Origin: a virus
Strand: one strand, 5' to 3'
IMG/VR virus record: IMGVR_UViG_3300025889_018307
Span: 20,311-84,310 of that record
Length of the DNA: 64,000 bases
Part shown: in pieces, positions 8,236-13,825 of the stretch
Layout of the letters: every line of letters starts with the position of its first letter
Numbering within the stretch: position 1 is the first letter of the stretch
Translations under genes and position numbers: made by a program
Notes under the pieces: generated by a model
Seen by the model: only the letters and a program-made list of their open reading frames with translations
Database searches by the model: none
What the model was told of the DNA's origin: nothing

Positions 8236-8511
8236 ATGGAAAAGTTAACACAATTTTGGAATTGGCTTTTGAATAAGACAACTCTAGACGAGAAAGCTGT
8301 TGAAGTTTATGATGAAGTAAAAGATAGGGCTAAAGAAATGGCTGATGAATTTAAAGATGTAAAAAAAGCTTTAAAAAATGTAGCTACTCAATCTAAAGAT
8401 GTTGTTAATGCTTCTAAAGGTAAAAAACGAAGAGGTAGACCTAAAAAAAACAATACTACTACCTCAGAATGGGAAGCAAATAAGGGTAGACCTGCACCTA
8501 AAAAGAAATAA
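8236..8511 (+). CDS. Hypothetical protein with basic C-terminus (KKRRGRPKK, AT-hook-like)
   Basis: ORF; coiled segment followed by a Lys/Arg-rich tail with GRP motifs. Confidence 0.6.
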   Translation: MEKLTQFWNWLLNKTTLDEKAVEVYDEVKDRAKEMADEFKDVKKALKNVATQSKDVVNASKGKKRRGRPKKNNTTTSEWEANKGRPAPKKK

Positions 8512-9599
8512 TGATGAGAAACATATTACTATTACTTTTTCTACTTTTTTCTTTAAATTCTTATTCTCAAAATGAATTAAAGAAAATATTTAAATTTTCT
8601 ACATTCTATGCAGCAGTAAACGGAGGAACTTCTCTTTCTAATGTTGATGTTTATTCAGTTACAGATGGTTTAACAACAACTACAATTGAAACCCCATTTG
8701 ATTATACATTAGCATTAGGAGTTAGAAAAATAGCTAGAATGGGTTATGAACCTAAAGAAGCATTTAAAAAGGGTCAAGAAAACTCATTTTCAGATGCTGC
8801 TACTATTGGTAAAGTTAAAGGATTTGAATTTTTATTTGAGGTTGATTATAAAAGACAAGAAGGAATTGAATATTTAGATCAACATCATTTTTTAAGATAT
8901 GTATCTGAATGTGGAAATGATAAATGTACTAAACCCATATGTATTAAAAATTTTACTGCTAAAATTGAATATTTACAAGATGGGTTTGCTGACATAGAAT
9001 ATTTTGAAGCATCAGAGCGTTATAGATACAAATATAATAATAAATTATCATTTAATCTTGGTGCAGTTCAACGTTTATCTGAACCTTATGGTTATGATCC
9101 ATTAGAAGAGTGGAAATTATCAAATGGTAATTTGCACTACACATATCTAGCATTAGAAGAAGGTTATAATGTTAATTTTATTTCACATGATATTATTCAA
9201 TATCTAGACCCACAAGGAAATATAGTAGCAGAAAATAATGAAGTTTGGGAAGCAGTAGTTATCCCACAAATATTAGCTGACTATACTGAGAAAAAAAGAG
9301 ACCAACAAAACAACACTATACAACATTCATTAGTTATTGGATTTGATTATTATCATTATACTAAAACATTTTGGTTACACTCATGGGGTAATTTAATGCC
9401 GTGGCATTATGATGGTGGTAGTGAATTTTCATATCATAACTTTAATGATGGTGAACAGTGGTATGATTATTCAGGTGGTTTAATATTTGGATACAAATAC
9501 AATAAAAATTTAGGGGTATTTATAGAAGGAAAATACAATAAATACTGGAATAGAGAGTGGCATGACTTTTCTGTAGGGATGAATTATATAATATTTTAA
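8511..9599 (+). CDS. Putative outer-membrane beta-barrel protein
   Basis: Bacteroidota-type signal peptide (..SLNSYS|Q), aromatic-rich alternating strands, C-terminal beta-signal SVGMNYIIF. Confidence 0.7.
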   Translation: MMRNILLLLFLLFSLNSYSQNELKKIFKFSTFYAAVNGGTSLSNVDVYSVTDGLTTTTIETPFDYTLALGVRKIARMGYEPKEAFKKGQENSFSDAATIGKVKGFEFLFEVDYKRQEGIEYLDQHHFLRYVSECGNDKCTKPICIKNFTAKIEYLQDGFADIEYFEASERYRYKYNNKLSFNLGAVQRLSEPYGYDPLEEWKLSNGNLHYTYLALEEGYNVNFISHDIIQYLDPQGNIVAENNEVWEAVVIPQILADYTEKKRDQQNNTIQHSLVIGFDYYHYTKTFWLHSWGNLMPWHYDGGSEFSYHNFNDGEQWYDYSGGLIFGYKYNKNLGVFIEGKYNKYWNREWHDFSVGMNYIIF

Positions 9600-9602
9600 A
9601 AA

Positions 9603-13596: not shown

Positions 13597-13600
13597 AACT

Positions 13601-13825
13601 ATGAGTTGGAAAGAAATTTTTAAAGATGAAAATGAATATAATGAAAAATCTATAGTTGGTTTCATTGCATTCCTAATGATGGTAGTTGTAATGGTAGCTG
13701 ATTTAATAACAGGATGGATTGGAAAAGACTTAGTAATAAATGAATATATTTATGATTCATTTGTAATAGTAGTACTGGGATGTTTTGGTATTGCTGGTTT
13801 AGAAAAATTCGCAAACAGAAAATAA
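13601..13825 (+). CDS. Small two-TM membrane protein (holin-like topology)
   Basis: 74 aa, two hydrophobic helices, charged termini. Confidence 0.55.
   Translation: MSWKEIFKDENEYNEKSIVGFIAFLMMVVVMVADLITGWIGKDLVINEYIYDSFVIVVLGCFGIAGLEKFANRK

What the first reader, a model, noticed from the sequence alone, without database searches (positions are those of the whole stretch)
8236..13825. Phage-encoded envelope operon: beta-barrel OMP, membrane anchors, exported thioredoxin fold and T9SS cargo
Seen: seven tightly packed genes after one putative late promoter, six with export or TM signals. They include a 362-aa OMP ending in a BAM beta-signal, a CxxC-less exported thioredoxin fold, and a 997-aa Cys/Asp-repeat protein with a typical T9SS type A CTD. 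Established: T9SS is a Bacteroidota secretion system that exports CTD proteins and anchors many at the cell surface. Inference: the phage uses host BAM and T9SS to build a multi-component surface structure on infected cells, for superinfection exclusion, adhesion or grazer evasion. I do not recognise this as a characterised phage system; it is the strongest candidate here.
Basis: partly seen in the sequence, partly recalled or inferred. Interest (0 to 1): 0.85.

Follow-up and report, generated by a model that had tools for sequence, protein, structure and literature searches.

The report
Phage lysis-linked envelope genes plus T9SS fibre
An uncultured phage of Bacteroidota carries, next to its lysis genes, a widespread phage-only trio (outer-membrane barrel, inner-membrane coiled coil, inactive periplasmic thioredoxin) plus a large fibre-like protein tagged for the host's type IX secretion system; the trio may be an undescribed way of opening the host envelope.

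Summary
The genes exist as described. The 362-aa protein models as a 14-strand outer-membrane barrel. The 137-aa protein is a thioredoxin fold with the CGPC loop deleted. The 997-aa protein has a genuine T9SS type A tail (51.6 bits, cut-off 23). Three exported families expose Gln after the signal peptide, as Bacteroidota proteins do.

Synteny holds: among 80 related viral loci, barrel 80, TM protein 72, Trx 67, large protein 59.

The reading needs revising. Only the trio (barrel, 93-aa TM coiled coil, dead Trx) is constant. Of 59 large proteins, 26 keep a full T9SS tail and 23 have a shortened tail that no T9SS model recognises. A second, distant set of 80 loci has the trio (79/74/71) and no such cargo. 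There the TM-Trx pair lies within 50 nt of holin-like or endolysin genes in 36 of 71 loci. In the window, a holin-like and an endolysin-like gene follow directly. No lipoprotein-type spanin candidate was found.

Best reading: a lysis-linked envelope set, possibly standing in for spanins, with a lineage-specific T9SS fibre. Function is untested.

Phage T9SS cargo is already in print (Bellas 2020). This scan has noted the same module on other genomes. The claimed promoter was not confirmed.

The parts
8192..8235 (+).
   Evidence: Holds CCCATATATT. The recurrent + strand motif TTCGTATATT (11 exact copies) does not match here within one mismatch. Sigma-70-like sites in the region are at chance level.
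8236..8511 (+). 91-aa basic protein without export signal; not a conserved part of the module
   Evidence: Only sub-threshold family hits, including AT_hook at E 0.053. Found in 6 of 80 related loci. No hydrophobic window.
8511..9599 (+). 362-aa outer-membrane beta-barrel (signal peptide, Gln at +1, C-terminal G-x-N-Y-x-x-F)
   Evidence: AF2 model with 14 strands, pLDDT 74.7. Fold matches OmpG, EstA, NanC and FapF. Atlas nearest clusters are OMP_b-brl at 0.94. No Pfam family in 30 of 30 members. 3711 homologues in metagenomes. Present in 80 of 80 and 79 of 80 loci.
9603..9884 (+). 93-aa bitopic inner-membrane protein: short N-terminus, one TM helix, Pro-rich linker of variable length, conserved TRMEFDMKDQ motif and amphipathic helix; no Cys
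   Evidence: Alignment A7 and hydrophobic window 11-29. Found in 72 of 80 loci by tblastn and 74 of 79 by HMM. PHROG hits only to families of unknown function. Atlas hits are viral-only unnamed clusters.
9889..10194 (+). 101-aa bitopic membrane protein, a diverged copy of the 93-aa gene
   Evidence: BLASTP against the 93-aa protein gives E 0.003 with the same layout. The TM93 HMM gives E 0.0045. Found in 4 of 80 loci.
10212..10592 (+). Exported thioredoxin-fold protein lacking the CxxC loop (ORF listed from GTG at 10179; the ATG at 10212 matches relatives)
   Evidence: Profile A3 against PDB: 118 sequences at E<=0.01, best thioredoxin 2vim at E 1.3e-9, with the CGPC segment in a gap. Pfam and NCBIfam thioredoxin hits are below cut-off. 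Gln follows the signal peptide in 58 of 58 sequences. Found in 67 of 80 and 71 of 79 loci.
10603..12342 (+). Large protein, residues 1-580: signal peptide (Gln20 invariant) and a string of beta-sandwich domains joined by single Cys repeats
   Evidence: AF2 pLDDT 73.1, pTM 0.35. Residues about 157-257 are FnIII-like (Z 9.4, rmsd 2.1, 86 aligned). Foldseek gives only multi-domain adhesins, FnIII strings and T5 pb4. Q20 is invariant in A2.
12343..13389 (+). Large protein, residues 581-929: about ten tandem 26-aa GCTDxxAxNYxxxAxxDDGSC repeats and a Cys-rich module before the tail
   Evidence: Pattern listing. The pre-tail module is invariant in classes A and B. The repeat also matches a Synechococcus phage S-CAM3 gene annotated as virion structural protein.
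13390..13596 (+). Large protein, residues 930-997: T9SS type A C-terminal sorting domain (and stop codon)
   Evidence: TIGR04183 51.6 bits (cut-off 23) and PF18962 50.4 bits (cut-off 27). It is the only PF18962 match in the 84-kb record. 118 of the 120 nearest homologues carry PF18962.
13601..13825 (+). 74-aa two-TM protein, holin-like
   Evidence: Two hydrophobic windows. No family above cut-off. In relatives it lies directly before the endolysin-like gene or before the TM-Trx pair. Found in 18 of 80 and 45 of 79 loci.
13827..14666 (+). 279-aa protein with an acidic Tyr/Asp/Glu tail, function unknown, not conserved with the module
   Evidence: No family hit above cut-off. Found in 2 of 80 loci.
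14678..15286 (+). 202-aa endolysin-like protein
   Evidence: phrog_3000 at E 8.7e-36 (unknown function) and phrog_33083 'endolysin' at E 6.3e-17. In relatives it occupies the slot that a Peptidase_M15_3 gene holds elsewhere (L142 against L143). Homologues occur in 24 phage records, among them Bacteroides phages at 48-52% identity. No PDB sequence match.
15301..16506 (+). 401-aa protein with four hydrophobic windows and a central coiled-coil-like stretch; travels with the endolysin-like gene in close relatives
   Evidence: windows; adjacent to the 202-aa gene in L001, L003, L005-L010. Only weak family hits.

Best explanation
The region is a composite of two things.

(1) A phage-only envelope trio. 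It consists of a Sec-exported, BAM-type 14-strand outer-membrane barrel, a bitopic inner-membrane protein with a periplasmic Pro-rich linker and helix, and a periplasmic thioredoxin fold that has lost its CxxC loop. This trio belongs to the lysis cassette of a very large group of marine Bacteroidota phages. It most likely acts at the envelope step of lysis. The three proteins would link the inner and outer membranes and help breach or detach the outer membrane once holin and endolysin have acted. These phages show no lipoprotein spanin for that job.

(2) In this lineage the cassette also carries a roughly 1000-aa fibre-like protein made of beta-sandwich domains, a Cys/Asp-repeat stalk and a type A tail. 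It would be exported by Sec and then by the host T9SS, and so displayed on or released from the infected cell late in infection. It is an add-on, not the core.

Shown: the folds, the signals, the conservation and the gene neighbourhoods.
Inferred: the localisations, any complex formation, and every functional step.
For: - The trio is constant across two distant clades. OMP/TM/Trx counts are 80/72/67 of 80 loci and 79/74/71 of 79 loci.
- In the distant clade the TM-Trx pair lies within 50 nt of a holin-like or endolysin gene in 36 of 71 loci and within 1 kb in 51 of 71. A typical cassette has overlapping stops and starts: holin-like, TM, Trx, Peptidase_M15_3, 3-TM holin-like (L159).
- In the first clade a lysis-type gene lies in the fetched stretch in 39 of 79 loci. 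It is within 1 kb of the module in 25 of those 39, despite three different gene orders.
- In the window the holin-like gene starts 5 nt after the large gene's stop codon, and the endolysin-like gene is 1 kb further on.
- The TM protein has the layout of an i-spanin: N-terminal TM helix, Lys before it, and a helical periplasmic part with a linker of variable length.
- No lipobox ORF occurs in window 8000-16800 or anywhere in the 84-kb record.
- In the cultured flavobacterial phages of one survey, only two potential unimolecular spanins are named in the passages read (PMC8776804).
- The cargo is dispensable to the trio. It is absent in 0 of 79 loci of the second set. The T9SS tail is full in only 26 of 59 large proteins.
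- Export is adapted to a Bacteroidota host. The Q-rule counts are (PMC5837995, listing abstract). The nearest cultured tail sheath belongs to a Flavobacterium phage at 52% identity.
- Contigs from RNA libraries cover the stretch. One 1000-nt contig bridges the large gene, the holin-like gene and the 279-aa gene.
Against: - No functional datum exists. All of this is guilt by association.
- The barrel gene itself usually lies 0.5-3.5 kb from the TM-Trx pair, not inside the tight cassette.
- The TM protein's periplasmic part (about 58 aa) is short for an i-spanin. It has no Cys, whereas intermolecular disulfides are proposed as a potentially universal feature of two-component spanins (PMC6139136, abstract).
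- 0 of 24 family members hit a PHROG spanin family.
- In set 1 the TM-Trx pair is within 50 nt of a lysis gene in only 3 of 66 loci.
- The holin calls are weak. The 74-aa family has no family hit. The 3-TM family reaches 24.1 bits against a cut-off of 24.8.
- The 202-aa 'endolysin' rests on one PHROG label and on its position.
- A few relatives carry small lipoproteins in the cassette that could be ordinary o-spanins (L056, L003, L005).
- A role for a dead thioredoxin in membrane disruption has no precedent that I know of.
- The RNA contigs do not prove transcription.
Confidence: 0.45

Rival explanations
1. First reader's model. The phage uses host Sec, BAM and T9SS to build a multi-component structure on the surface of infected cells. 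The barrel acts as anchor or shuttle, the Trx as periplasmic holdase for the 52-Cys cargo, and the fibre is displayed outside. The purpose would be superinfection exclusion, receptor masking or adhesion. Proximity to lysis genes would only reflect late expression.
For: - All signals are present.
- The cargo gene directly abuts the barrel gene in several orders, with the cargo just upstream of the barrel in L013, L014, L017-19, L027, L054 and L072.
- In the distant clade a different small secreted protein starts 2-5 nt after the barrel's stop in 47 of 60 cases. This resembles the cargo-plus-cognate-barrel pairing of type B CTD proteins with PorP/SprF-like proteins (PMC9143113, listing abstract).
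- The cargo looks like an adhesin: an FnIII-like domain, adhesin-type Foldseek matches, and homologue lengths from 917 to 1693 aa.
- PorV appears among the barrel's fold matches (Z 7.4; 8gl6_F at E 1.8e-3).
Against: - The trio persists without any T9SS-tagged protein.
- PorV scores below generic barrels.
- No PorV or PorP/SprF family match at E<=0.1.
- The TM-Trx pair is wedged between holin-like and endolysin genes with overlapping codons. That is unusual for a moron.
- Profile comparison finds no homology between the small secreted protein and the cargo tails (probabilities 7% and 3%).
Confidence: 0.25
2. The TM protein and the dead thioredoxin regulate lysis rather than execute it. They would act as an antiholin-like or superinfection-sensing pair in the periplasm, comparable in logic to T4 RI and Sp (recalled, not tested here). 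The barrel would be an exclusion protein or a receptor mask.
For: - Position directly after a holin-like gene (36 of 71 loci within 50 nt of a lysis gene).
- The periplasmic location of both proteins is plausible.
- One of 24 TM-family members weakly hits a PHROG holin/anti-holin family (E 0.0047).
- The TM protein is short and Cys-free, which fits a regulator better than a spanin.
Against: - There is no sequence or fold link to any known antiholin.
- The strong conservation of a large barrel alongside is not explained.
- The single PHROG hit is at noise level.
Confidence: 0.15
3. The large protein, and perhaps the others, are virion parts such as fibres or decoration, not envelope proteins.
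For: - The Cys/Asp repeat also occurs in a Synechococcus phage S-CAM3 gene annotated as virion structural protein.
- The best Foldseek match of residues 1-580 is the T5 tail-tip protein (E 2e-6, TM 0.15).
- In some relatives the module lies near large structural-looking genes.
Against: - Cleavable-looking signal peptides with Gln at +1 in 43 of 45 distinct cargo sequences, and a T9SS tail, make cytoplasmic assembly into virions unlikely.
- The Foldseek TM-scores are very low.
- The window's structural genes lie elsewhere, in the first 20 kb of the record.
Confidence: 0.05
4. Assembly artefact: a host fragment carrying envelope genes was joined to phage DNA.
For: Envelope genes with host-type sorting signals are unusual in a phage.
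Against: - GC is uniform at 0.25-0.32, and all long ORFs lie on one strand.
- Phage genes lie on both sides.
- The same order recurs on independent contigs (L001, L003).
- 481 IMG/VR stretches encode the barrel.
- Only 3 matches occur among 185,579 species genomes, all on MAG contigs.
Confidence: 0.01

Closest known systems
Phage-encoded T9SS type A cargo genes ('Cryophage', Bellas et al. 2020, PMC7468147; T9SS sorting-domain ORFs in crAss-like contigs, de Jonge et al. 2019, PMC6949934; passages read)
   Same: A phage of a Bacteroidota host encodes a protein with a Sec signal and a type A T9SS sorting domain. Here the domain scores 51.6 bits against TIGR04183. The authors likewise suggest hijack of the host system and a role in surface change or superinfection.
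   Different: - The Cryophage cargoes are enzymes or PA14 proteins in variable islands. Here the cargo is a domain-and-repeat fibre with no recognised catalytic domain.
- It sits in a conserved module with a barrel, a TM protein and a dead Trx next to the lysis genes.
- In 23 of 59 relatives the tail is cut down.
Two-component spanins (lambda Rz/Rz1 type; Kongari et al. 2018, PMC6139136, abstract and outline read)
   Same: The genes sit inside or beside the holin-endolysin cassette. One partner is a bitopic inner-membrane protein with a helical periplasmic part, and one partner resides in the outer membrane. Together they could span the periplasm.
   Different: - The outer-membrane partner would be a 14-strand barrel, not a small lipoprotein. 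No lipobox ORF was found.
- There is a third, thioredoxin-fold partner.
- The TM protein has no Cys.
- No spanin family hit.
- The barrel gene is often 0.5-3.5 kb away.
T9SS shuttle and anchor barrels: PorV for type A and PorP/SprF-like for type B CTD proteins (PMC9143113 and PMC12618676, listing abstracts; PMC12635249, abstract and headings)
   Same: A barrel gene lies adjacent to the gene of a CTD-bearing secreted protein. The predicted strand number is 14. PorV is among the fold matches.
   Different: - No sequence match to these families at E<=0.1.
- PorV (Z 7.4) ranks below OmpG, autotransporter and NanC barrels.
- The protein ends in a beta-signal, with no Cys-bearing C-tail like the one named for SprF.
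- The barrel persists where no CTD protein exists.
Phage-encoded outer-membrane proteins near lysis or tail genes (lambda Lom and Bor; recalled, not tested here)
   Same: A phage gene gives a host outer-membrane protein. Bor lies next to the lysis cassette.
   Different: Lom is a small 8-strand barrel and Bor a lipoprotein, both prophage-expressed morons. Here the barrel is a 14-strand protein of a lytic-looking myovirus. It is co-conserved with two partners in thousands of sequences.
Thioredoxin family
   Same: The fold-level sequence profile match covers the beta-alpha-beta core and the cis-Pro loop (VVPT).
   Different: The CGPC segment is deleted in all 27 aligned members. The protein carries a signal peptide. 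Redox catalysis is therefore not expected.

Membership tests
T9SS type A cargo (CTD protein) | C-terminal domain matching TIGR04183 / PF18962 above the curated cut-off | tested here: met
   51.6 bits (cut-off 23) and 50.4 bits (cut-off 27), full model length, residues 930-997. Six-frame search of the record gives 55.2 bits.
T9SS type A cargo (CTD protein) | [quoted passage not shown] | tested here: met
   Crude test only, as no SignalP was available. The sequence shows a hydrophobic N-terminus followed by Gln. Q20 is invariant in 23 aligned sequences. 43 of 45 distinct relatives pass the same test.
T9SS type A cargo (CTD protein) | Host possesses a T9SS, and secretion depends on it | not testable with these tools
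   The host is unknown. A Bacteroidota host is inferred from the Q-rule, the tail itself, the nearest cultured sheath in a Flavobacterium phage and homologues of the 202-aa protein in Bacteroides phages.
T9SS type A cargo (CTD protein) | The tail is conserved across the protein family | tested here: inconclusive
   118 of the 120 nearest homologues carry PF18962. Among 59 syntenic large proteins, 26 have a full tail, 23 have a tail with two deletions, 7 are cut by the locus end and 3 are other. The shortened tails give no T9SS hit in 6 of 6 proteins.
Outer-membrane beta-barrel (BAM substrate) | Closed antiparallel barrel fold | tested here: met
   Predicted only. AF2 gives 14 strands, pLDDT 74.7 and pTM 0.71, with the first four strands at low confidence. 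Matches: OmpG Z 10.9 (rmsd 5.4, 200 aligned) and NanC Z 10.3 (rmsd 3.6, 151 aligned).
Outer-membrane beta-barrel (BAM substrate) | C-terminal beta-signal ending in an aromatic residue | tested here: met
   The protein ends ...GMNYIIF. Among distinct relatives, 137 of 147 end in F or Y and 147 of 147 carry G-x-N-Y. That this motif is the BAM signal is established knowledge, recalled here.
PorV or PorP/SprF T9SS barrels | Sequence membership in the Pfam or NCBIfam models of these families | tested here: not met
   No family at E<=0.1 for the 362-aa protein. None at E<=1 in 30 of 30 family members against Pfam.
PorV or PorP/SprF T9SS barrels | Fold closer to PorV than to other barrels | tested here: inconclusive
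   6h3i_F gives Z 7.4 (rmsd 6.3, 190 aligned) at rank 29. 8gl6_F gives E 1.8e-3 at rank 18.
Thioredoxin | Thioredoxin fold | tested here: met
   By sequence profile: 118 PDB sequences at E<=0.01, the listed ones almost all thioredoxins, best E 1.3e-9. No structure model was made.
Thioredoxin | CxxC active site | tested here: not met
   The alignment to 2vim puts CGPC(R) in a 5-residue gap of the phage profile. The motif FNAxWN replaces it in all 27 members.
Two-component spanin | i-spanin: N-terminal TM helix and a helical periplasmic domain | tested here: inconclusive
   The layout fits. The periplasmic part is only about 58 aa, and topology is inferred from one Lys before the helix.
Two-component spanin | o-spanin: outer-membrane lipoprotein with a lipobox, encoded in or next to the i-spanin gene | tested here: not met
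   A crude lipobox screen finds 0 ORFs in window 8000-16800 and 0 in the 84-kb record. A minority of relatives do have one.
Two-component spanin | Periplasmic Cys for intermolecular disulfides (PMC6139136, abstract) | tested here: not met
   No Cys in the 23 members of the 93-aa family aligned in A7 (the 24th row, the 101-aa paralogue, has one near its N-terminus).
Two-component spanin | Location in the lysis cassette | tested here: met
   Set 2: within 50 nt of a lysis-type gene in 36 of 71 loci and within 1 kb in 51 of 71. Window: the holin-like gene is 3.7 kb downstream of the 93-aa gene in the same gene run.

The most novel reading that the evidence does not exclude
The barrel, the bitopic coiled-coil protein and the dead thioredoxin form a new class of phage lysis machinery for Bacteroidota. 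It would be a three-part, barrel-based envelope-spanning complex that replaces lipoprotein spanins in thousands of ocean phages. The neighbouring secreted protein, here a T9SS-tailed fibre, would be its variable fourth arm, docking by its C-terminal tail.
Probability: 0.3. Interest if true: 0.85.

Novelty: new variant of a known kind. Interest (0 to 1): 0.6.

Why it matters
How phages of Bacteroidota get through the outer membrane at lysis is largely unknown. In the cultured flavobacterial phages of one survey (PMC8776804, passages read), only two potential unimolecular spanins are named in the passages read.

The trio here has 3711 detectable homologues of its barrel alone and no family name in Pfam, NCBIfam or PHROGs. 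It recurs in two distant viral clades beside holin-like and endolysin genes. If it is the missing outer-membrane step, it would be a new lysis mechanism in one of the ocean's main groups of heterotrophs. It would also give a marker for calling lysis cassettes in marine viromes.

The T9SS-tagged fibre adds a second point. A phage addresses a protein to a phylum-specific secretion system, and in sister lineages the address tag is being trimmed away.

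Tried and rejected
- DNA similarity of 8236-13825 to 50,697 phage records: no match.
- tblastn of the barrel against the same records: no match. No cultured carrier was found.
- tblastn of the 93-aa protein gave only Streptococcus tape-measure noise.
- tblastn of the Trx gave only ordinary Streptomyces phage thioredoxins.
- The barrel profile against PDB sequences gave only a chance hit (E 0.78).
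- Species genomes yielded three MAG contigs labelled Parvibaculum, Sphingobacteriales and Rickettsiales. I take these for binned viral contigs, so they give no host call.
- Cluster look-up gave no useful names.
- I tested whether the small secreted protein after the barrel in the distant clade is a miniature of the cargo. By eye its tail looks alike. hhalign gives probabilities of 7% and 3%. The idea is rejected as unsupported.
- Its LDL-receptor-A-like motif reaches only E 0.029 in 1 of 4 members.
- I tested whether the cargo's N-terminal domains are swapped between phages. Coverage counts do not show it clearly, so I dropped the claim.
- The motif CCCATATAT as a promoter gave 22 matches against 33 expected. 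Rejected.
- Sigma-70 scan: at chance level.
- The 202-aa protein has no PDB sequence match.
- Foldseek and VIA on residues 1-580 tested mainly the FnIII-like domain. The other domains remain unassigned, and both AF2 jobs are spent.
- RNA-library contigs show presence only. Parts with thin cover are not interpreted, and the habitat labels of the runs are not used.
- None of the listed papers describes the trio. This covers only the held library. Supplements were closed, so the SpaninDB tables of PMC6139136 and the gene tables of PMC7468147 were not seen and might bear on this claim.

Full report
WHAT IS THERE

The window is bases 20311-84310 of an 84,310-base virus record that CheckV rates 52% complete. 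GC is 0.25-0.32 throughout, and every long ORF is on the + strand.

It is a tailed phage. The first 20 kb of the record encode a tail sheath (phrog_23, E 6e-74), a baseplate hub and a head-tail adaptor. The sheath's nearest cultured relative is Flavobacterium phage vB_FspM_immuto at 52% identity over 100% of the query.

The seven ORFs of the finding lie exactly where stated and are tightly packed. They follow the two ribonucleotide reductase genes (5481-8191). They run on, with no + strand intergenic terminator-like site, into four further genes:
- a 74-aa two-TM protein;
- a 279-aa acidic protein;
- a 202-aa endolysin-like protein (phrog_3000 at E 9e-36; phrog_33083 'endolysin' at E 6e-17);
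- a 401-aa membrane protein.

THE INDIVIDUAL PROTEINS

The 362-aa protein has no Pfam, NCBIfam or PHROG family, and none was found in 30 of 30 diverse relatives.
- With a 30-sequence alignment, AF2 gives a 14-strand barrel with an extramembrane helical insert. pLDDT is 74.7 and pTM 0.71. The first four strands are weak.
- Fold searches return only outer-membrane barrels: OmpG Z 10.9, the EstA autotransporter barrel 10.6, NanC 10.3, KdgM 10.0. Foldseek gives NanC and FapF at about 1e-4.
- T9SS PorV appears but lower (Z 7.4; E 1.8e-3).
- The language-model atlas also places it among OMP_b-brl clusters at 0.94.
- Its C-terminus (...GMNYIIF) is conserved. Among 147 distinct relatives, 147 carry G-x-N-Y and 137 end in F or Y.

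The 137-aa protein is a thioredoxin fold. A 27-member profile finds 118 PDB sequences at E<=0.01, best 2vim at 1.3e-9. In that alignment the CGPC segment falls in a gap of the phage family, while the cis-Pro loop (VVPT) is kept. Its start is probably the ATG at 10212.

The 997-aa protein carries a genuine type A T9SS tail: TIGR04183 at 51.6 bits against a cut-off of 23, and PF18962 at 50.4 against 27. It is the only such domain in the record.
- Residues 1-580 model as a string of beta-sandwiches (pLDDT 73, pTM 0.35).
- Residues about 157-257 are FnIII-like (Z 9.4, rmsd 2.1, 86 aligned).
- No catalytic domain was recognised.
- The C-terminal half has about ten tandem 26-aa GCTDxxAxNYxxxAxxDDGSC units, and single units serve as linkers further up.

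The 93-aa protein has one TM helix preceded by Lys. A Pro-rich linker follows, whose length varies by up to about 35 residues among relatives. Then come an invariant-looking TRMEFDMKDQ motif and an amphipathic helix. It has no Cys. The 101-aa protein is a weak copy of it (E 0.003).

The three exported families follow the Bacteroidetes Q-rule. By a crude test, Gln comes directly after the signal peptide's hydrophobic core in 66 of 72, 58 of 58 and 43 of 45 distinct sequences. The rule itself is from PMC5837995 and PMC10653852 (listing abstracts only).

SYNTENY AND ABUNDANCE

The barrel has 3711 homologues at E<=0.001 among 6180 scored candidates. The top 120 are all at least 70% identical and unnamed. 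It also has 317 representatives at 50% clustering.

In IMG/VR, 481 stretches encode it, and 80 loci were kept. By tblastn those 80 loci hold:
- the barrel in 80;
- the 93-aa protein in 72;
- the Trx in 67;
- the large protein in 59;
- the 74-aa protein in 18;
- the 202-aa protein in 14;
- the 91-aa protein in 6;
- the 101-aa protein in 4;
- the 279-aa protein in 2.

Three gene orders occur: barrel-TM-Trx-large, large-barrel-TM-Trx and TM-Trx-large-barrel. The linkage therefore survives rearrangement. ORF clustering shows that no other gene family approaches these four in frequency.

Only three matches exist among one genome for each of 185,579 prokaryote species. All three are on MAG contigs. 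None exists in 50,697 cultured or deposited phage records. The refutation criteria 'never syntenic' and 'chimera' therefore fail.

First, the T9SS tail is not constant. Of the 59 syntenic large proteins:
- 26 end in a full tail with the YPNP motif;
- 23 end in a tail of about 45 residues;
- 7 are cut by the locus end;
- 3 are something else.

Three of three tested distant full-tail proteins pass TIGR04183 (33-35 bits). Six of six short-tail proteins hit no T9SS family at E<=1. Five of five of their records have no PF18962 match. Profile comparison shows the short tail is the same tail with two deletions (probability 100).

Second, I fetched a distant clade using a barrel only 33% identical to the window's. 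HMMs built from set 1 find the following in its 79 scorable loci:
- the barrel in 79;
- the TM protein in 74;
- the Trx in 71;
- a 3-TM holin-like gene in 46;
- the 74-aa holin-like gene in 45;
- Peptidase_M15_3 in 27;
- the phrog_3000-type gene in 8;
- the cargo's tail or pre-tail module in 0.

Five of five of these records lack PF18962.

The typical layout there is: barrel; a small secreted acidic repeat protein (present in 60 of 79 loci, starting 2-5 nt after the barrel's stop in 47 cases); then holin-like, TM, Trx, M15 peptidase and 3-TM holin-like genes with overlapping stops and starts. Annotation support is as follows: M15 scores 52-66 bits, and the 3-TM holin-like gene scores 24.1 bits against a cut-off of 24.8.

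The TM-Trx pair is within 50 nt of a lysis-type gene in 36 of 71 loci and within 1 kb in 51 of 71.

In set 1, 39 of 79 loci show a lysis-type gene in the fetched stretch. In 25 of those it is within 1 kb of the module. Measured from the TM-Trx pair alone the figures are lower: 3 and 9 of 66.

The phrog_3000-type gene and the M15 gene occupy the same slot in sister loci (L142 against L143). This supports the endolysin call for the window's 202-aa protein. That protein also has homologues in 24 deposited phage records, among them Bacteroides phages at 48-52% identity.

MECHANISM

The constant unit is the trio, and its constant company is the lysis cassette. The TM protein has the layout of an i-spanin. 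The barrel is an outer-membrane resident. No lipobox ORF exists in the region or in the 84-kb record.

I therefore rank first that the trio works at the envelope step of lysis, with the T9SS fibre as a lineage-specific addition (confidence 0.45).

Against this:
- The barrel gene is usually not inside the tight cassette.
- The TM protein is short and Cys-free, whereas disulfides are proposed as a potentially universal feature of two-component spanins (PMC6139136, abstract).
- No PHROG spanin family is hit by 0 of 24 members. The hits go to two families of unknown function, 8 and 7 members.
- The holin calls are weak.
- A few relatives carry small lipoproteins that could be ordinary o-spanins.

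The barrel abuts the secreted protein's gene in both clades, much as PorP/SprF-like barrels pair with type B cargo (PMC9143113, listing abstract). The cargo also looks like an adhesin. A regulatory role (antiholin or superinfection sensing) gets 0.15, a virion role 0.05 and an artefact 0.01.

EXPRESSION

Contigs from four RNA libraries cover the stretch. They include zero-mismatch pieces at 10567-10938 and 11841-12158 (X21). A 1000-nt contig spans 13256-14255, across the end of the large gene, the holin-like gene and the start of the 279-aa gene (X19). The tool warns that DNA can be present in such libraries. This is a weak hint of transcription and no more.

PROMOTER

TTCGTATATT occurs 11 times exactly, always on the + strand, and several copies lie in intergenic gaps. 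It is a good candidate for a phage promoter element. It does not occur before 8236. The flanking exact copies are at 3022 and 16722, so the transcription unit may be wider than the finding.

PRIOR KNOWLEDGE

Phage-encoded T9SS cargo has been reported for 'Cryophage' (PMC7468147) and noted in crAss-like contigs (PMC6949934). Phage proteins obeying the Q-rule were noted for Porphyromonas phages (PMC10367356). I read passages of all three.

My four literature searches listed no paper describing the trio.

Earlier notes of this scan describe the same module on other genomes and also link the trio to lysis genes. I had seen the lysis link in set 1 before reading them. They prompted the test on the distant clade, which bore out the claim that the trio occurs without cargo beside lysis genes.

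Noticed in passing
window 3022, 16722, 18761, 19655, 22753, 33727, 42882, 60018, 62007, 63883 and others: TTCGTATATT occurs 11 times exactly, all on the + strand. With one mismatch there are 21 matches against 11.6 expected. Several exact copies lie in intergenic gaps before genes. It is a candidate phage promoter element.
   Followed up: partly
L087-L166, directly after the barrel gene (for example L159:11011-11559): The distant clade has a 148-310-aa secreted protein in 60 of 79 loci. It has a Cys-rich N-terminal module, a variable number of very acidic D/E/T/I/V/Y repeats, and a conserved tail. In 47 cases it starts 2-5 nt after the barrel's stop. No family hit; no profile similarity to the window's cargo.
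   Followed up: partly
L056:11688-11792, L003:16493-16630, L005:15180-15731, L093:6778-6963: A minority of related loci carry small lipobox proteins inside the cassette, for example a 34-aa one between the Trx and the holin-like gene in L056. These are possible ordinary o-spanins. The window has none.
   Followed up: partly
L029:12274-12795 and 13 other loci: A PAP2-superfamily membrane phosphatase gene (38 bits, cut-off 27.2) lies within the module region in 8 loci of set 1 and 6 of set 2. It is another envelope-directed gene.
   Followed up: no
window 27798-28190: The window's staphylococcal-nuclease-like gene matches the SNase family (E 6e-56). In 19 and 16 related loci that family sits inside or beside the module. 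Here it lies in the 7-deazaguanine region instead.
   Followed up: no
window 26234-26491: A second, 85-aa thioredoxin-like ORF weakly matches the dead-Trx HMM (E 4.6e-7). It lies just after tRNA-Gln (25926-25998).
   Followed up: no
window 14678-15286: The endolysin-like 202-aa protein has 48-52% identical, mostly unannotated homologues in Bacteroides phages (crAss002, DAC15-like, 'Rudgehvirus') and in Pseudoalteromonas phages.
   Followed up: partly
G000:C1:1-300 (outside the window): The first 100 bases of the record recur at offset 198, indicating a short direct repeat at the contig start.
   Followed up: no
window 12343-13212: The 26-aa Cys/Asp repeat also matches a gene of Synechococcus phage S-CAM3 annotated as virion structural protein, and a single-cell 'Marine virus' record. 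The repeat module is therefore shared across marine phages of unrelated hosts.
   Followed up: no
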